Source of the DNA: Chlorobiota bacterium
GTDB lineage: Bacteria > Bacteroidota > Ignavibacteria > Kapaibacteriales > NICIL-2
DNA: 64,000 bases
Direction of reading: 5' to 3'
NCBI GenBank assembly: GCA_026415505.1
Contig: JAOAGY010000032.1
Location: 294,159 to 358,158, forward strand
In this document: piece by piece, positions 35,912 to 46,050 of the stretch
How the letters are laid out: every line of letters starts with the position of its first letter
Position numbering within the stretch: the first letter of the stretch is position 1
Program-made: the position numbers and the translations under genes
Notes under the pieces: generated by a model
Told to the model about the DNA's origin: nothing
The model's input: only the letters and a program-made list of their open reading frames with translations
The model's database searches: none

Positions 35912-37570
35912 ATGGTCCTGCGGGTGCTCGTGTGTGTTGCAACGTGTGCGGCTACTGTCGTTGCGCAGGTGGTCATCAACGAAATGCAGCCGGTGCCACC
36001 GACCGGCGAACCGGAGTGGGTCGAGCTGTACAATCCCAGCGATAGCGACGTCACTCTGACGAACCTTTACCTCTACGATCGTACCTCGCGCGCATCGCTT
36101 GCGGGCGTGACAGTGCCGGCGCGAGGTTTTGCCGTGCTCACACGCGATACGGACGATTTGAAGCTCCTGCGCCGGATTCCACCCATCGCTCGGTTGTACC
36201 AAGTGACTCTGCCCTCGCTCAACAACACGACCGAGAGTTTGTTCATTGCCACACGGGACACGGTCGTGCTCGATTCGGTCTATTACGACATGCGTTGGGG
36301 CGTTCGTGGGCGAACGCTCGAGCGCATCGAGGCGCAACGCCCAGGTTACCTTCGAGACAACATCGCCGCGTGTATCGCTCCGGATTCGGCAACGTGTGGC
36401 TACGACAATTCGGTCAGTCTCGTCGAGCGCGACATGCGGGTACAGTCGGTGCGCGTGGATTCGGCACTCGTCGTCACTGTCCGAGTCGCAAATCGCGGGC
36501 GCACAGCACTTGCAGCGTTCGACGTTCGACTGCAACTGCGACGCCCGCGGTCTGCCGACTGGATCGAAGTGGGACAAATGTCGTTCGAGCAACTTCCACC
36601 TGCAGCGACATCCGAACGAAGCGTTGCACTTTCGAGCTTTCCGGCATTTGCGCATGCCGGCTACGGGCAGTACCTGCTCCGAGCACTTGCTGACCTCGGC
36701 GACGACCGTGCATGGAACGACACCGCTGAAACGCTCATGTTCATTCCGCTGCCGCGCGGAAGCATCGCCATCAACGAGATCATGTACGATCCTCTCGACA
36801 GTCGGAGCGAATACGTAGAGCTTGCCAATGTCACCGACGACACACTCGACATCGGCGGTTTGTCGGTGGGCGATGCAGTGCCGCCGAAATCGGTTTTGCC
36901 GAATTTGAGATTACTTCCTGGTGGATTTGCTGTCGTCGCACTCGACACCGGCATCTGGAACACGTTCCCTGAACTCCGGGGCGACGATCGCTGCATCGTC
37001 ATCAACGCTTCGTGGACGCTCGGCAATTCAGGCGATGCCGTCGTGATAGCCAATCCTGGCGGTAGCATTCTCGACTCGCTTGCCTACGAGTCGTCGTGGC
37101 ATTTCTGGGGCATCAAAGACACCAAGGGACGGTCGCTCGAGAAACTGCGTCCCGATCTTCCGTCTGCCGATTCGCGAGCATGGAGTACTTCGACCGATCG
37201 ACGAGGCGGAACACCTGCGGCACCGAACAGCATCGTTCCGCGCGACACCTCACGTGCAGAGCTATCGGCGACACCGAATCCGTTTTCACCATGGAGTACC
37301 GATCAGCGACTACTGCAAACGACAATCACATACCGTTTGCCGTGGTCCAGCGCACGTGTGACGCTGCGGATTTTCGATGCCGAAGGGCTTCCGGTTCGCC
37401 AGCTCGCCAATGGGCAGTACTCGGGCAGCGATGGGGTCGTGCTCTGGGATGGACGCAACGATGCTGGCTTTGCGGTCGGTGCAGGAGTTTATGTGCTGCT
37501 GCTCGAAGCGACCGATGCACGCTCGAGCGAAAGCATCCGTCAGACCATACCGATCGTCGTGGGACGGTGA
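35912..37570 (+). CDS. Secreted protein with two lamin-tail (LTD) domains and a T9SS/FlgD-Ig-like C-terminal sorting domain
   Basis: Signal peptide MVLRVLVCVATCAATVVAQ. LTD signatures VVINEMQP...PEWVELYN and IAINEIMYDP...EYVELAN. C-terminus ...GQYSGSDGVVLWDGRNDAGFAVGAGVYVLLLEA... is typical of the T9SS type-A sorting domain. Confidence 0.65.
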   Translation: MVLRVLVCVATCAATVVAQVVINEMQPVPPTGEPEWVELYNPSDSDVTLTNLYLYDRTSRASLAGVTVPARGFAVLTRDTDDLKLLRRIPPIARLYQVTLPSLNNTTESLFIATRDTVVLDSVYYDMRWGVRGRTLERIEAQRPGYLRDNIAACIAPDSATCGYDNSVSLVERDMRVQSVRVDSALVVTVRVANRGRTALAAFDVRLQLRRPRSADWIEVGQMSFEQLPPAATSERSVALSSFPAFAHAGYGQYLLRALADLGDDRAWNDTAETLMFIPLPRGSIAINEIMYDPLDSRSEYVELANVTDDTLDIGGLSVGDAVPPKSVLPNLRLLPGGFAVVALDTGIWNTFPELRGDDRCIVINASWTLGNSGDAVVIANPGGSILDSLAYESSWHFWGIKDTKGRSLEKLRPDLPSADSRAWSTSTDRRGGTPAAPNSIVPRDTSRAELSATPNPFSPWSTDQRLLQTTITYRLPWSSARVTLRIFDAEGLPVRQLANGQYSGSDGVVLWDGRNDAGFAVGAGVYVLLLEATDARSSESIRQTIPIVVGR

Positions 37571-37571
37571 A

Positions 37572-39908
37572 TCAACGCCCCGGGAGAACGATCAACGGAT
37601 ACGTAACAGTACGATTGCCGCTGGACCGAATCACGAGCATGTAAAAACCAGCGGCAACATCGCTCATATCGAGGGTCGTTCGCCCGATGCAGTCGTAGCG
37701 ACCAACGACACTACCCGTTACCGAATACAGTACCGCTTCGACTGCATCTGTAGTGGGCAGCCGAAGTTCCGACTCGACGACAAGTCCATAACTGGCTTTC
37801 GTCGCTTTTGCTTCCTCTTCGACACGAGAGATACCGGTTATTTCGATGCGAAGTATTACACCGTAATCGTCACTGCACCAAATCGTGCCGTCGGGCGATT
37901 TGTCGCAACTTATCCTACTCAGTGGCACACCTCTGGGTCGAGGTACAGGATACCAGCTCTTGCCACCATCGCCAGTGTAGATGAAACCAGAAGCGACATA
38001 GCCTGCCGACAGGGTGTTGATCCGTGGTGCCATTATCACACACCGAGAGGCATCTGCAAGTGTCAAACTGTATTGCTGCGCAGTCGGAATGTAGAGCCAG
38101 AATCCCACTAACTGGCGTGACCATGTCCATCCGCCGTCCGTAGTCAATAAAAGCCACAATTGGAGCGTATCGGGATTGTAAACCTGACGACGGATGCAGA
38201 CACCTATGACTTTGTCCGATACGGCATCGAAGGCAACTACTGTTTCATTTTTTTCATTTTCATTGTACGACAATGGAATTGTCGTCAGCTTACGCCACGT
38301 GATCCCGGAATCAACCGAAGAGTAAATGACGCCGCTTGCCTCGTCGGTACATAAAAGGGTATTGCCTGCACGCACGATACGCAGAGGAGCGAGTATCTCC
38401 AAAGTATCGTGTCGGCGCCACGATTGTCCTCCATCAGTGGAAATCCAGTAGTAAAATGATTTCGGTGAGCTACCACCATACGCACCAACACCGATGATGA
38501 CTCCAGGCGAAGCACTCAGGAGTTGTGTCAATATCCCCATATCGCTCGGTGGATCGGGAAGTGGTTGCCATGACTTTCCTCCGTCGCTGGTTCGGAAAAA
38601 CCGCATCGTCGGCGATACGCCACGGTGCTGGTAGAAAATACCGTTGGAGCGATCGGTGAATACAACGATCGTTGACCTGGCAACTGTATCGATCGGTATG
38701 CTTTGGAACCATGTCGTTCCTCTATCGTCGGTTTTCAATGCTACTGAGCCTAATCCCCACGCGACCACTGTACTATCGTCTATCGCTTGAATGCCGGTCA
38801 ACGTTTCTGTGCTGGGGATCACTTTTTCCCATGCGTTGCCGGGGCGTTTTCGGTAAACGCTTCCACGCTGTGTCGCAAACCACAACGTACCGTCCTTCCC
38901 TGCCGTCGCATGATACGCAATCGATCCAGTTGCTCTCCAGGTATAATCAATGAGTGCATTGGGGAGCCATTCGGGGAACCAAGTTTTTCCGCCATCAGTG
39001 GTCGTCATTACCGGTGGTGTTGTGTTTTGGTATCCACCGAAGAAATTCGCACCGCTGACAAAACCACGAGCCGAATCCAACCAGATGATGTTCTGCTTGT
39101 AGCAGTAGGGATATTCCTCTCCGAATTCAGCGATCAAGTCCCACGATCGTCCCCGATCGGTACTACGAAGCAAGGCTCCTCCCTCGGCATACCAAATGCT
39201 ACTATCCGAACTCTGGAAGAAGCGCTGCAGCATAAAGTCGTACATGCTGAATTGTGGTATTCGACGCGGTGGAGTCAGTGCTTGTTGCCACGTATCTCCT
39301 CCGTCACTGGTGAAGTAGATCCGATAGGTCGAATCCATCGGACTGAGGAGAACAACACCTTCTTGTCGTGAGAAAAAATGGAGGATAATCGGTCTTGTTC
39401 CGAGAGTACTGCGGGTGATCGTTTGCCAGCTTTTTCCTCGATCGGACGAGTGGAAAAGCAAGAATCCATCATTTTCTCCCTGAGCCGCAGCGAACCAGTT
39501 CTCTGAATCGAGAGCAAACAACGCAGTTACTTCTGTTGCACTATCGATGGTCATCGGACCGACGATCGAATCGCCGCGGAGCAACCAGACTCTCCTCGGG
39601 TACGAAGCAATGATCGTATCGTATGTACTTGTACCTATACCTTGAACATTATAGAACAATCCTCCGAGAGTGTCGGGATAAGAGAATCGCAATCGCACCC
39701 ACGTTTTCCCGCCATCGGTCGTGCGGAACGCATCGTTGCACAGTGATAGGACATTTAGTGAATCGCGCGCTAAAATCGGACCTCCGGTGTTGCCAGGGAA
39801 TGGCGGATTGACACGTTCTACTCTGATATCCGATCCCTGCGCAAGCAAAAGTGCCGCCCCAAACGCTGCTGCAACAGCGATACATAGTGGCATCCGAAAC
39901 AGCAGCAT
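37572..39908 (-). CDS. BNR/Asp-box repeat protein (about 14 repeats, probably two beta-propellers, GH74/sortilin-like) with a T9SS C-terminal sorting domain, in a low-GC island
   Basis: 778 aa. Signal peptide. Repeated S/T-x-D-G-G-x-T/S-W motifs (TDGGKTW, SDRGKSW, TDGGDTW, ...). C-terminal sorting domain (…GFYMLVIRSSGNRTVTYPLIVLPGR). GC is visibly lower than in neighbouring genes. Confidence 0.75.
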   Translation of the reverse strand: MLLFRMPLCIAVAAAFGAALLLAQGSDIRVERVNPPFPGNTGGPILARDSLNVLSLCNDAFRTTDGGKTWVRLRFSYPDTLGGLFYNVQGIGTSTYDTIIASYPRRVWLLRGDSIVGPMTIDSATEVTALFALDSENWFAAAQGENDGFLLFHSSDRGKSWQTITRSTLGTRPIILHFFSRQEGVVLLSPMDSTYRIYFTSDGGDTWQQALTPPRRIPQFSMYDFMLQRFFQSSDSSIWYAEGGALLRSTDRGRSWDLIAEFGEEYPYCYKQNIIWLDSARGFVSGANFFGGYQNTTPPVMTTTDGGKTWFPEWLPNALIDYTWRATGSIAYHATAGKDGTLWFATQRGSVYRKRPGNAWEKVIPSTETLTGIQAIDDSTVVAWGLGSVALKTDDRGTTWFQSIPIDTVARSTIVVFTDRSNGIFYQHRGVSPTMRFFRTSDGGKSWQPLPDPPSDMGILTQLLSASPGVIIGVGAYGGSSPKSFYYWISTDGGQSWRRHDTLEILAPLRIVRAGNTLLCTDEASGVIYSSVDSGITWRKLTTIPLSYNENEKNETVVAFDAVSDKVIGVCIRRQVYNPDTLQLWLLLTTDGGWTWSRQLVGFWLYIPTAQQYSLTLADASRCVIMAPRINTLSAGYVASGFIYTGDGGKSWYPVPRPRGVPLSRISCDKSPDGTIWCSDDYGVILRIEITGISRVEEEAKATKASYGLVVESELRLPTTDAVEAVLYSVTGSVVGRYDCIGRTTLDMSDVAAGFYMLVIRSSGNRTVTYPLIVLPGR

Positions 39909-39912
39909 AGTC

Positions 39913-40503
39913 TCAATTACAAACGACTCGACATTCAGGGTTCGGGTCGCAGTTGTACGTGCTACCAGGCTGGCATTGGCTTAACTGTCGACCAAACTTT
40001 TGTACTCTACGGCGTCCGTTTTCATAACAGACACGCCAATTCTGAATACAACACGTACCAGTCGGACACGGTAAATCGACTGGACCTTGCATAAAAGGAA
40101 CATCGTTACAGCGAGCAAAGCATGTCGAAAAACGCACTGTGATCGACCAATCGCATGAGTCCTGTGGTATTTTTTGACACGTATCCAACGGCAGAGGAGC
40201 ATCGGTCAGCAGAGACTGTACGATAATATCGTAGAGATCAGGTGTAAGTGGCGGAGGATTGCAACCTGTGCCAAGATATTGCACTGCATCGATTGCAATC
40301 ACCGAGCAGTCCAGTTGACCGTTGCAGATGAGTATTGAGAATGCAACTCGCAGTGTACATGGAGGTGCGATGATCATGTTCTCGTAGGTACTGTATTGCA
40401 TCCACATGCAACTATCGGGTGGCGGGCATGGTGCTTGCGCTTGGGCGAGCAACGGAGAAAGTACAAGCGCGAAGAGAAACTGTAATCGTCCGAGTAGTTT
40501 CAT
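39913..40503 (-). CDS. Secreted cysteine-rich protein (18 Cys in about 172 mature residues), no recognised family
   Basis: 196 aa. Signal peptide MKLLGRLQFLFALVLSPLLAQAQA. Cys and Pro rich. A strong AGGAGG Shine-Dalgarno sequence lies 9 nt upstream. Low GC. Lies 5 nt upstream of the BNR gene on the same strand. Confidence 0.6.
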   Translation of the reverse strand: MKLLGRLQFLFALVLSPLLAQAQAPCPPPDSCMWMQYSTYENMIIAPPCTLRVAFSILICNGQLDCSVIAIDAVQYLGTGCNPPPLTPDLYDIIVQSLLTDAPLPLDTCQKIPQDSCDWSITVRFSTCFARCNDVPFMQGPVDLPCPTGTCCIQNWRVCYENGRRRVQKFGRQLSQCQPGSTYNCDPNPECRVVCN

Positions 40504-40512
40504 CAGCTTTTT

Positions 40513-40552
40513 CCTCCTCAGGTAGTTTTACGTGCTGACACTTGTAAATATA
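40513..40552 (-). promoter_or_regulatory. Ribosome-binding site (GAGGAGG, 40513-40519) and an upstream AT-rich -10/-7-like element (TATATTT, 40546-40552) for the island operon
   Basis: Read on the minus strand: ...TATGCGTATATTTACAAGTG...CCTGAGGAGGAAAAAGCTGATG. A consensus Shine-Dalgarno sequence is unusual relative to other gene starts in this window. Confidence 0.35.
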
Positions 40553-40561
40553 CGCATAGTT

Positions 40562-40601
40562 TTCGTAAAAACCATAACGCATCTAACAGCACAATGCGCA
40601 G
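40562..40601 (-). terminator. Possible weak intrinsic terminator downstream of ribE
   Basis: Minus-strand GCGCATtgtgctgttagATGCGT followed by TATGGTTTTTAC. The imperfect 5-6 bp stem is followed by a T-run. Weak. Confidence 0.2.
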
Positions 40602-40694
40602 GCACAGTGAAAGCTTCAACATACGTTGCGAAAGTGCCCCGTGTAGCTGTTTGGCAGTATCGATTGGAAAAATGTTCCGTCGAGAACTCTTGTC

Positions 40695-44781: not shown

Positions 44782-45291
44782 ATGTCACTACAGGTTGCGC
44801 TGTTTTTCCTGTTCGGTATCGGTGCGATCGCAACGGCGATAGGAACGATCACGCGACGCAATCCGGTCGCTGCTGCGGTCAATTTGATCGCGCACTTTTT
44901 CATGCTCGCCGGTCTCTACCTCACGCTCGAAGCACAACTGCTTGCGGTGCTTCAAATTCTCGTCTATGCCGGCGCAATCATGGTGCTGGTCGTGTTCGTG
45001 ATCATGCTTCTCAACTTGGGCGACGACCGAGCGCTCCGCGAGCAGTTCACGGTGCGAAAAGTCGTCGGTGTCGTGCTGGCTGCAATGTTCATGCTCCAAG
45101 TCGGCGTGTTGATCAATGCGCAGCCGACAGGTGCGACGTCGCTCGCGCCGACGGCAGCATCGCTCGGCACCGCCGAGAGCATCGGACAGGCACTGTTCAC
45201 GCAGTACCTTTTCCCCTTCGAGGCGATTTCATTGCTGCTCCTGGCTGCGCTGGTGGGAGCAATCATCTTGGCAAAACGCAAAGTCGAATAA
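44782..45291 (+). CDS. nuoJ: NADH-quinone oxidoreductase subunit J
   Basis: 169 aa. Five-TM pattern with [22 protein letters not shown], typical of NuoJ/ND6. Confidence 0.8.
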
Positions 45292-45304
45292 CCTGGCAAT
45301 TCCG

Positions 45305-45619
45305 ATGAATCTGCAGAGCATTCCACTCGATTGGTACTTGATCGTCGCAGCGGTTCTGTTCACAATCGGCGTCGTCGGTGTCGTCACACGGCGCAATGCT
45401 ATCGTCGTCTTCATGGCGATCGAGATGATGCTCAATTCGGTGAACTTGGTGTTCGTCAGCTTTGCGCAGTTCCTCGGCGACATTGCCGGACAAATCTTCG
45501 TGCTCTTTGTGATGGCAGTCGCTGCAGGGGAAGCTGCTATCGGGCTTGCAATCGTGCTGGCGCTGTTTCGCAACAAGCGCACCGTGTACGTCGACGAGGT
45601 AAACGTCCTCAAATGGTGA
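45305..45619 (+). CDS. nuoK: NADH-quinone oxidoreductase subunit K
   Basis: 104 aa. [48 protein letters not shown] is typical of NuoK/ND4L. Confidence 0.85.
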
Positions 45620-45661
45620 CACGAGACACCGCAATCACGGCGGTGTATCGAGCAGAGGTAA

Positions 45662-46050
45662 GATGCCGAAACAAGTTCGGCATGACTACAGAGAGAACCG
45701 TCACCCTGAACTCGTTTCAGGGTCCCGCCGCATTCCTTGTCACCCTGAACTCGTTTCAGGGTCTCGTCCCCATGTGCAGGAGATGCCGAAACAAGTTCGG
45801 CATGACTACAGAGAGAATCGTCACCCTGAACTCGTTTCAGGGTCCCGTCTCCACGTGCAGGAGATGCCGAAACAAGTTCGGCATGACTACAGAGAGAACC
45901 GTCACCCTGAACTCGTTTCAGGGTCTCGTCCCCACGTGCAAGAGATGCCGAAACAAGTTCGGCATGACGTAAGCGGAATGTCACCCTGAACTTGTTTCAG
46001 GGTCTTTCCCCCGACGTGCAAGAGATGCCCAACCAAGTTCGGCATGACGA
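45662..46050. repeat. Tandem array (about 4.5 copies) of an 80-81 bp composite unit containing two distinct perfect 8-bp-stem hairpins
   Basis: Hairpin A is ATGCCGAAacaagTTCGGCAT, starting near 45662, 45782, 45863, 45944 and 46024 (the last copy degenerate). Hairpin B is ACCCTGAActcgtTTCAGGGT, starting near 45700, 45739, 45820, 45901 and 45980. Intervening segments are conserved (tacagagagaaccgt; tcgtccccacgtgcagg), so these are not unique spacers. Confidence 0.85.

What the first reader, a model, noticed from the sequence alone, without database searches (positions are those of the whole stretch)
39913..40503. Secreted 18-cysteine protein of unknown family leading the island operon
Its cysteine spacing (CPPPDSC, LICNGQLDC, TGTCC, CDPNPEC, VVCN) suggests a multi-disulfide extracellular fold. 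I recognise no known domain. It could be a novel bacteriocin/toxin-like peptide, an adhesin module, or an inhibitor or partner of the downstream BNR propeller protein.
Basis: partly seen in the sequence, partly recalled or inferred. Interest (0 to 1): 0.55.

Follow-up and report, generated by a model that had tools for sequence, protein, structure and literature searches.

The report
Orphan cysteine-rich protein beside propeller gene
A real, exported, 18-cysteine protein with no detectable relatives in any characterised family is carried, with a large secreted beta-propeller protein, on a 3.1-kb island that only some strains of a hot-spring Chlorobi bacterium have. The two most likely work as a pair, but what they do is unknown.

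Summary
Window 39913-40503 (-) encodes a 196-aa protein with a Sec signal peptide, a strong ribosome-binding site and 18 cysteines.

An exhaustive search of 1.84 billion protein clusters found only two other lineages, at 43% and 27% identity. They share 14 cysteine positions; the window protein has four more.

In the window and in a Bacteroidota MAG the gene sits directly upstream of orthologous tandem Asp-box (BNR) propellers with near-threshold T9SS sorting tails. These two genes are the only ones the two loci share.

In the window the pair forms a 3,113-bp low-GC island (37579-40691). Strains about 97.7% identical lack it, and there ribE abuts the LTD gene.

About 60 more distant propeller loci have no such partner.

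Best reading (confidence about 0.45): a disulfide-locked periplasmic or cell-surface binding partner of the propeller. Function is not shown.

The family looks new. Interest is moderate.

The parts
39913..40503 (-). CDS of the 196-aa, 18-Cys exported protein (orphan family). The mature part is about residues 23-196.
   Evidence: ORF and Cys count. Homologues P0001 (99%), P0002 (43%) and P0003 (27%). No family or fold match.
40438..40503 (-). Codons 1-22, a Sec-type (SPase I) signal peptide, MKLLGRLQFLFALVLSPLLAQA. It has no lipobox and no twin-arginine motif.
   Evidence: Read directly from the sequence; hydropathy. Both homologues also start with signal peptides once the start of P0002 is corrected (the 187-aa form P0022).
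40513..40519 (-). Shine-Dalgarno-like GAGGAGG, 9 nt upstream of the ATG.
   Evidence: Only 3 of 37 crude gene starts in the window have such a motif.
40504..40691 (-). 188-nt upstream region (44% GC) that belongs to the island. It presumably carries the cassette's own promoter, which was not identified.
   Evidence: Junction mapping. GC. The sigma-70 consensus scan found nothing convincing here.
37572..39908 (-). Partner gene: a 778-aa (773 aa in GenBank, MCX8051672.1) signal-peptide-bearing tandem Asp-box/BNR beta-propeller with 11 Asp-boxes.
   Evidence: Pfam Sortilin-Vps10, BNR and PSII_BNR. Asp-box count. Ortholog in L005, 26% identity over 522 aa, E 4e-41. Closest solved proteins are GH74 xyloglucanase and Ycf48, only at repeat level.
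37575..37760 (-). C-terminal ~60 residues of the propeller protein: a probable T9SS type A sorting domain.
   Evidence: TIGR04183 scores 22.5 bits (cut-off 23, E 8e-5) on the isolated C-terminus. The L005 ortholog scores 20.6 bits.
37579..40691 (.). The strain-variable 3,113-bp two-gene island. In island-less strains a 20-nt spacer lies between the ribE stop and the LTD-gene stop.
   Evidence: Island-less contigs L070, L071, L072, L075 and L077. BLAST break points 40692 and 37578 at 97.6-97.8% flank identity. Junction alignment.

Best explanation
Shown:
- The gene encodes a real Sec-exported protein of an orphan family.
- Every known member has an even number of cysteines in the mature core domain: 14 shared positions, plus 4 extra in this hot-spring strain.
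- There is no CxxC, CxxCH, lipobox or twin-arginine motif.
- It travels as a two-gene unit with a tandem Asp-box beta-propeller that carries a probable T9SS sorting tail. In this species the unit is an accessory, probably horizontally acquired, island.

Inferred:
- After export the protein is oxidised in the periplasm into a compact beta-sheet-plus-helix domain locked by 7-9 disulfides.
- It binds the co-expressed propeller protein as a non-catalytic accessory partner. It could be a stabilising or ligand-shaping subunit, like the cysteine-rich 10CC modules that pack against the Vps10 propeller. It could instead be a periplasmic guard that holds the propeller until T9SS export.
- In the window, the 4-nt gap and the absence of a ribosome-binding site before the propeller gene suggest its translation is coupled to the cysteine-rich ORF.
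- The two extra disulfides are read as thermostabilisation.
For: Real and conserved:
- Three lineages at 99%, 43% and 27% identity have aligned Cys.
- The only invariant charged residues are D72 and R165, and there is no invariant His, Ser or Glu. This argues for a binding or structural role rather than catalysis.

Exported: signal peptides in all three lineages.

Pairing:
- The gene sits directly upstream of orthologous propellers in the window and in the Bacteroidota MAG JAIBAE01, plus a second sample of that MAG's lineage.
- tblastn of all 14 L005 genes against the 64-kb window matches only these two genes.
- The third lineage is followed 63 nt later by an ORF that starts with a signal peptide.

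Unit of gain or loss: the 3,113-bp island holds exactly these two genes and is absent from strains about 97.7% identical.

Foreign composition.

Specificity:
- Four closer propeller-homologue contexts have no cysteine-rich homologue.
- Nor do 56 metagenomic propeller loci; the best local hmmsearch E-value is about 1.

Tight spacing with no Shine-Dalgarno motif before the propeller gene.

Hot-spring origin of island-carrying contigs: (PMC6421429).

Precedent for a cysteine-rich module contacting an Asp-box propeller: PMC2716378.
Against: - No physical interaction was tested; no co-folding was possible.
- Synteny rests on only two fully informative lineages.
- In the Bacteroidota lineage a GC-rich hairpin plus T-run (CCCTGCTCC-AAACTTT-GGAGCAGGG-ATTTTTTTT) separates the two genes. 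They may therefore be transcribed separately or at different levels.
- The cysteine-rich protein is much better conserved than the propeller (43% against 26-27% identity). That is unexpected for a tightly co-evolving interface.
- The structural model is only mid-confidence (pLDDT 61.6).
- The T9SS tail of the propeller is just under the curated cut-off.
- There are no expression data.
Confidence: 0.45

Rival explanations
1. It is an independent secreted effector, such as a disulfide-stabilised toxin, bacteriocin-like protein or adhesin. It merely shares an accessory island with the propeller gene.
For: - It is strain-variable, horizontally acquired, small and exported, which is typical of competition or niche factors.
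- A terminator-like hairpin separates it from the propeller gene in L005.
- It evolves at a different rate from the propeller (43% against 27% identity).
Against: - The island has no immunity, ABC-transporter, maturation or lysis gene; it holds only two genes.
- With no T9SS tail, nothing would carry it across the outer membrane.
- PADLOC and PHROGs searches were negative.
- The pairing with an orthologous propeller is kept across phyla while every other neighbour differs.
Confidence: 0.2
2. It is specifically a periplasmic inhibitor or immunity-like guard. It would neutralise a hydrolytic Asp-box propeller (glycosidase-like) inside the producer until the enzyme is exported by the T9SS. Operon-encoded periplasmic inhibitors of secreted hydrolases are the analogue.
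For: - It has a signal peptide but no sorting tail, so it should stay in the periplasm, whereas the partner has a probable T9SS tail.
- It is encoded first, with a strong ribosome-binding site.
- Most characterised Asp-box propellers are glycosidases (PMC2716378).
- The best solved match of the partner is a GH74 xyloglucanase, E 7e-5 at repeat level.
Against: - There is no evidence that the propeller is an enzyme. About 60 related propellers lack any such partner.
- The fold hits are insignificant.
- This is a special case of the best explanation and cannot be separated from it with the present data.
Confidence: 0.18
3. It is a metal- or redox-cofactor-binding periplasmic protein (metallothionein-like, Fe-S or quinone-bearing). 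One model would be the disulfide-rich light subunit of methylamine dehydrogenase, which sits on a propeller heavy subunit.
For: - Cysteine makes up 9% of residues.
- The architecture of a small Cys-rich protein plus a propeller recalls MauA/MauB and QhpC/QhpB (from my own knowledge).
Against: - It has a Sec signal, not a Tat signal.
- No two Cys are spaced as CxxC, and there is no CxxCH (positions).
- There is no Pfam hit to the methylamine dehydrogenase light-chain family or to any other.
- No Trp is conserved across the three lineages.
- The island holds no maturation genes (radical SAM, MauG-like).
- Even Cys counts in all members fit disulfides.
Confidence: 0.07
4. It is a spurious ORF, or a non-translated remnant.
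For: - The GenBank annotation of this MAG gives consecutive protein accessions to the LTD, BNR, ribE and AddB genes. It skips this ORF.
- There are no expression data.
Against: - The reading frame is full-length and the Cys pattern is conserved at 27-43% identity in two other phylum-level lineages.
- It has a signal peptide and a strong Shine-Dalgarno motif.
- JGI and Logan gene callers call it.
- Between two Bacteroidota samples the gene has 1 synonymous and 0 non-synonymous differences.
Confidence: 0.02

Closest known systems
10CC-a/10CC-b cysteine-rich modules of the Vps10 domain (sortilin family; Pfam Sortilin_C)
   Same: - A compact disulfide-rich module (10 conserved Cys) is associated with an Asp-box beta-propeller and packs against it. 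An Arg of 10CC-b contacts an Asp-box (PMC2716378).
- The partner here hits the Pfam Sortilin-Vps10 propeller model.
   Different: - There is no sequence match to Sortilin_C.
- It is a separate polypeptide encoded upstream, not a C-terminal fusion.
- It has 14-18 Cys rather than 10.
- The partner looks like a tandem propeller of about 670 residues, not a 10-bladed one.
- The context is bacterial and T9SS-related.
Light (beta) subunit of methylamine/aromatic amine dehydrogenase, MauA, bound to the propeller heavy subunit MauB
   Same: A small protein of about 130 aa, cross-linked by six disulfides, functions only in complex with a beta-propeller subunit encoded in the same cluster (from my own knowledge).
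   Different: - No Pfam hit.
- Sec rather than Tat signal.
- No conserved Trp pair for TTQ.
- No mau accessory genes.
- The partner is an Asp-box tandem propeller with a T9SS tail.
Operon-encoded periplasmic inhibitors of secreted hydrolases (for example Inh/AprI of serralysin-type proteases; Ivy and PliC/MliC lysozyme inhibitors)
   Same: A small Sec-exported protein is encoded next to, or acts on, a secreted enzyme and is retained in the periplasm (from my own knowledge).
   Different: - There is no homology.
- The partner's enzymatic nature is unproven.
- Those inhibitors have few or no disulfides.
GH74 xyloglucanases and Ycf48/HCF136 (for the partner gene only)
   Same: - The partner has Asp-box repeats and its size fits two 7-bladed propellers.
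- Weak profile hits to 2CN3 (E 7e-5) and Ycf48 (E 3e-4).
   Different: - The similarity is confined to repeat motifs.
- phmmer against PDB finds nothing.
- NCBIfam scores are far below the cut-offs.
- No catalytic residues could be assessed.

Membership tests
Vps10-domain 10CC module (Pfam Sortilin_C) | Sequence match to the family profile | tested here: not met
   Pfam scans at E up to 1 returned no family for the window protein and none for the corrected L005 homologue. P0003 gave only an irrelevant 12.8-bit hit.
Vps10-domain 10CC module (Pfam Sortilin_C) | Ten conserved cysteines, fused C-terminally to the propeller | tested here: not met
   There are 14 shared Cys positions (18 in the window). 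The protein is a separate polypeptide encoded upstream of the propeller.
Vps10-domain 10CC module (Pfam Sortilin_C) | Packs against the side of an Asp-box propeller | not testable with these tools
Methylamine dehydrogenase light chain (MauA) | Family profile match, Tat signal, Trp pair forming TTQ, mau maturation genes nearby | tested here: not met
   No Pfam hit. The N-terminus has no twin-arginine motif. No Trp is invariant in the 3-lineage alignment. The island holds only two genes.
T9SS cargo (type A/B C-terminal sorting domain), applied to the cysteine-rich protein itself | C-terminal sorting domain of about 70-80 aa (TIGR04183 / PF18962) | tested here: not met
   No hit. The protein ends 1 residue after the last conserved Cys (VVCN*). 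The 48-aa tail of P0003 also has no hit.
T9SS cargo, applied to the partner propeller | C-terminal sorting domain | tested here: inconclusive
   TIGR04183 scores 22.5 bits (window) and 20.6 bits (L005) against a cut-off of 23, with E 8e-5 and 3e-4 on the isolated C-termini.
Bacterial lipoprotein | Lipobox [LVI][ASTVI][GAS]C at the end of the signal peptide | tested here: not met
   The sequences before the first Cys are ...AQAQAPC...YLKAQC and ...AEAHIHC. None fits the lipobox.
Bacteriocin / polymorphic toxin or defence system | Match to known toxin or defence profiles, with adjacent immunity, transporter or maturation genes | tested here: not met
   PADLOC gave 0 hits. PHROGs gave only E about 0.015 hits to unknown-function families for the two homologues. 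The island contains only the two genes.
Knottins and other small cystine-knot mini-proteins | A domain of about 30-50 aa with 3 disulfides in knotted topology, and matches to the family profiles | tested here: not met
   The mature domain is about 174 aa and is predicted as one beta-sheet-plus-helix unit. There are no Pfam hits. Disulfide connectivity itself could not be determined.
c-type cytochrome / zinc-ribbon / thioredoxin-like redox proteins | CxxCH or paired CxxC motifs | tested here: not met
   The Cys spacings are 6, 17, 11, 6, 15, 28, 8, 11, 4, 14, 5, 1, 7, 18, 8, 6 and 4. No pair is spaced as CxxC.

The most novel reading that the evidence does not exclude
The cysteine-rich protein is a new disulfide-locked fold. 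It forms an obligate heteromer with a tandem Asp-box propeller. This would be a bacterial, split, mobile analogue of 'propeller plus cysteine-rich module' receptors such as the Vps10 domain. Because it lacks a sorting tail, it might reach the cell surface by riding on the tail-bearing propeller through the type IX secretion system, which transports folded cargo.
Probability: 0.15. Interest if true: 0.7.

Novelty: categorically new. Interest (0 to 1): 0.42.

Why it matters
- If the pairing is physical, it would define a new two-component secreted module in the FCB superphylum. It would also give a first handle on the function of the very abundant, uncharacterised BNR/Ycf48-like T9SS propellers of Bacteroidota, Ignavibacteria and Chlorobi.
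- A CTD-less partner would test whether the T9SS can export hetero-complexes.
- The protein is a candidate new disulfide-rich fold from a hot-spring organism. It has a natural 14-Cys versus 18-Cys comparison for studying disulfide-based thermostabilisation.
- Natural island-plus and island-minus strains about 97.7% identical make the phenotype tractable in principle.
- The 'new' label applies to protein family and fold. No new mechanism has been demonstrated, and orphan exported proteins are common, so the practical importance is moderate.

Tried and rejected
- Pfam, NCBIfam, PADLOC and PHROGs on the protein and both homologues gave nothing meaningful.
- PDB sequence search by phmmer and by a 3-sequence profile, at E up to 10, gave 0 hits.
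- The word-indexed search of 5.8 billion proteins, with the single sequence and with the profile, found only the same three clusters.
- Exhaustive phmmer of 1.84 billion representatives found 3 proteins.
- A pattern scan of GTDB genomes only re-found the JAIBAE01 MAG. A pattern scan of metagenome contigs with the cysteine-rich profile found nothing.
- Single-sequence AlphaFold was useless (pLDDT 41.5). The 4-sequence run gave pLDDT 61.6 and pTM 0.63.
- Internal duplication: a pairwise hint links PCPPPDSCMWMQYSTYEN and PCPTGTCCIQNWRVCYEN (E 0.01). hhalign of the N-half against the C-half did not support it (probability 0.5%).
- I looked for analogous, non-homologous cysteine-rich small ORFs next to 60 other propeller genes. 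Only out-of-frame artefacts turned up.
- No flanking direct or inverted repeats, tRNA or integrase mark the island. Repeat family D1 is just the Asp-box codons.
- Rfam found nothing in the window.
- The sigma-70 promoter and terminator scan found nothing above shuffle expectation near the gene.
- A literature search for such a pairing found 0 papers.

Full report
**1. The observation**

Window 39913-40503 (minus strand) is an ATG-to-TGA ORF of 196 codons.

The N-terminus, MKLLGRLQFLFALVLSPLLAQA|QAPC, is a classical Sec/SPase I signal: a basic n-region, a hydrophobic core (11-residue hydropathy 2.56) and an AxA site. It has no lipobox and no twin-arginine motif.

GAGGAGG lies 9 nt upstream of the ATG. 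Only 3 of 37 crude gene starts in the window carry such a motif, so this gene's initiation signal is unusually strong for its host.

The Cys spacings contain no CxxC or CxxCH.

**2. It is a real gene of a very rare family**

- The word-indexed search found only a 99% identical copy (P0001).
- Exhaustive phmmer over 1.84 billion cluster representatives found two more lineages:
  - P0002, 43% identity, E 1.9e-32, from the Bacteroidota MAG JAIBAE01.
  - P0003, 27% identity, E 5e-4, from an ENA metagenome.
- A profile search added nothing. Pattern scans of GTDB genomes and JGI metagenomes also added nothing.
- The annotated P0002 is N-terminally truncated. The 187-aa form (P0022), starting MVKFLLVLSFMLFVQTTYLKA|QC, exists in another sample and restores a signal peptide. 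P0003 also has one.
- In the alignment, 11 Cys are in invariant columns and 3 more lie within one or two positions. That gives a 14-Cys core.
- The window protein has four extra Cys: C66, C109, C132 and C185.
- Counts are even in each mature core domain (18, 14, 14). P0003 has one further Cys in its C-terminal tail. With Sec export, this fits 7 disulfides in the core and 9 in this strain.
- The only invariant charged residues are D72 and R165, which argues against a conventional catalytic site.
- Between two samples of the Bacteroidota lineage the gene differs by one synonymous change only.

**3. No family or fold assignment**

- Pfam, NCBIfam, PADLOC and PHROGs gave nothing meaningful.
- PDB sequence and profile searches at E up to 10 gave nothing.
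- Single-sequence AlphaFold failed (pLDDT 41.5).
- With the 4-sequence alignment the model reached pLDDT 61.6 and pTM 0.63. It shows three long antiparallel strands, a helix, a short strand and a long C-terminal hairpin.
- Fold searches found no significant match:
  - Foldseek against PDB: best E 0.12, TM below 0.25.
  - Foldseek against BFVD: best E 0.025.
- The AlphaFold-database libraries were not available.
- The 'new fold' statement is therefore provisional and rests on a mid-confidence model.

**4. Context: a two-gene, strain-variable island**

The next gene, 37572-39908 (-), starts 4 nt after the stop codon, or 19 nt if the GenBank start is used. No ribosome-binding site precedes it.

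It encodes a 778-aa signal-peptide protein with 11 Asp-box motifs. It hits Pfam Sortilin-Vps10, BNR and PSII_BNR. Its C-terminus scores 22.5 bits on the T9SS type A sorting-domain model, against a cut-off of 23. The nearest solved proteins are a GH74 xyloglucanase and Ycf48, only at repeat level. Size and repeat count fit a tandem propeller (PMC2716378).

The window belongs to a Chlorobi/Chlorobiota MAG (AddB = MCX8051674.1). Protein accessions MCX8051671 (LTD)..672 (propeller)..673 (ribE) and ..674 (AddB) are consecutive. The exact 196-aa sequence is not in the collection. So the cysteine-rich ORF appears to be unannotated in GenBank.

Contigs of strains whose ribE protein falls in the same 90%-identity cluster show ribE followed after 31 nt by the LTD gene, with no island (L070, L071, L072, L075, L077). 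BLAST of L070 against the window gives 97.6-97.8% identity on both flanks, with break points at 40692 and 37578. Window 37579-40691 (3,113 bp) replaces a 20-nt spacer. The propeller gene even takes its last codon and stop from the conserved flank.

Three Logan contigs end 3 nt after the ribE stop, at the left junction. Two come from samples that also yield island-carrying contigs (SRR27730020 and SRR27730024). This suggests that both variants co-occur.

The island is 49-52% GC (GC3 0.45-0.52), in a genome of 58-60% GC (GC3 about 0.65-0.70). That favours acquisition from a lower-GC donor.

No flanking repeats or mobility genes were found.

Island-carrying contigs L001 and L002 come from IMG metagenome 3300017461, Obsidian Pool hot-spring sediment in Yellowstone (PMC6421429).

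**5. The pairing is conserved and specific**

- In JAIBAE01 (GC 40%) the homologue is followed 60 nt later by a 735-aa propeller. That propeller is collinear with the window's from the N-terminus: 26% identity over 522 residues, E 4e-41. Its C-terminus scores 20.6 bits on the same T9SS model.
- The same arrangement recurs in an independent sample (L013).
- tblastn of all 14 genes of that 20-kb locus against the 64-kb window matches only these two genes.
- The third lineage sits on a 1-kb contig. The next ORF begins with a signal peptide and then the contig ends.
- Four contexts of the next-closest propeller homologues have no homologue of the cysteine-rich protein. Those homologues are at 22-28% identity, with database E of 1e-17 or worse.
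- Nor do 56 metagenomic propeller loci; the best local hmmsearch E is about 1, and there is no plausible analogous Cys-rich ORF.
- One counterpoint: JAIBAE01 has a GC-rich hairpin followed by a T-run between the two genes. Strict co-transcription is therefore not universal.

**6. Interpretation**

Shown:
- an exported, conserved orphan protein with an even Cys count in each mature core domain;
- co-inheritance and co-mobility with one particular tandem Asp-box propeller that probably uses the T9SS;
- accessory status within the species.

Inferred:
- periplasmic oxidation to a 7-9-disulfide domain;
- binding to the propeller as a non-catalytic partner, either a stabilising or specificity subunit, or a periplasmic guard or inhibitor;
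- translational coupling in this strain;
- the two extra disulfides as thermoadaptation.

I put about 0.45 on the partner model, including its inhibitor variant. I put about 0.2 on an independent effector. Smaller weights go to cofactor binding and to a spurious ORF.

**7. Comparison with known systems**

The closest functional analogies are:
- the 10CC modules of Vps10 domains;
- the disulfide-rich light subunit of methylamine dehydrogenase on its propeller heavy subunit;
- operon-encoded periplasmic inhibitors.

Every membership feature that could be tested was not met (see the membership table). These are 'works like' leads only.

**8. Verdict**

Its 'unknown family' and 'partner of the BNR protein' ideas survive testing. 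The bacteriocin and adhesin ideas do not gain support.

As a protein family it lies outside everything searchable here. It is an orphan with three known lineages and no functional data, so interest is moderate (0.42).

Noticed in passing
window 37579-40691, against L070 4757-4776: The two-gene island is a precise presence/absence polymorphism. Strains about 97.7% identical carry a 20-nt spacer (TGCGATGGTAATCCTGCCAC) instead. The propeller gene's last codon and stop (CGT TGA) lie in the conserved flank, 1 nt from the convergent LTD gene's stop.
   Followed up: yes
window 39913-40503: The GenBank record of this MAG seems not to annotate the cysteine-rich ORF. Its neighbours have consecutive accessions (MCX8051671-674), and the exact sequence is absent from the collection. 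JGI and Logan gene callers do call it.
   Followed up: partly
window 40513-40519 (-): The strong Shine-Dalgarno motif GAGGAGG is unusual here. Only 3 of 37 crude gene starts in the window have a comparable motif, which fits foreign origin or high expression. The crude start calls may be imprecise.
   Followed up: partly
window 45739-46048: A tandem array of an 81-nt unit (3.8 copies, 91% matches) contains two short hairpins per unit. It lies between a NADH-dehydrogenase-subunit-like gene and the CTP synthase gene. In the ORF list it produces spurious repeat-encoded ORFs on both strands, such as 45229-45984 (-), 45331-45972 (+) and 45663-45989 (+). It has no Rfam match.
   Followed up: no
L005 10511-10570 (identical in L013): An intrinsic-terminator-like hairpin plus T-run (CCCTGCTCC-AAACTTT-GGAGCAGGG-ATTTTTTTT) lies between the cysteine-rich gene and the propeller gene in the Bacteroidota lineage. 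In the window the gap is only 4 nt.
   Followed up: partly
window protein residues 25-42, 112-119 and 145-162: There are short similar motifs: PCPPPDSCMWMQYSTYEN / PCPTGTCCIQNWRVCYEN, and PPDSCMW / PQDSCDW. They hint at repeated hairpin units, but the profile comparison of the two halves is not significant.
   Followed up: yes
L001/L002 (IMG 3300017461); L003/L004 with L073/L076 (SRR27730020, SRR27730024); L074 (SRR27730021): Island-carrying contigs come from Obsidian Pool hot-spring sediment, Yellowstone. In SRR27730020 and SRR27730024, which also yield island-carrying contigs, ribE contigs break 3 nt after the ribE stop, at the island junction. A third ribE contig (L074, SRR27730021) breaks there too. 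This suggests that island-plus and island-minus strains coexist.
   Followed up: partly
window 35912-37570 (+): The neighbouring 552-aa protein has two lamin-tail domains plus a FlgD-Ig-like C-terminal domain, which may be another T9SS-type cargo. It is conserved in both island-plus and island-minus strains.
   Followed up: no
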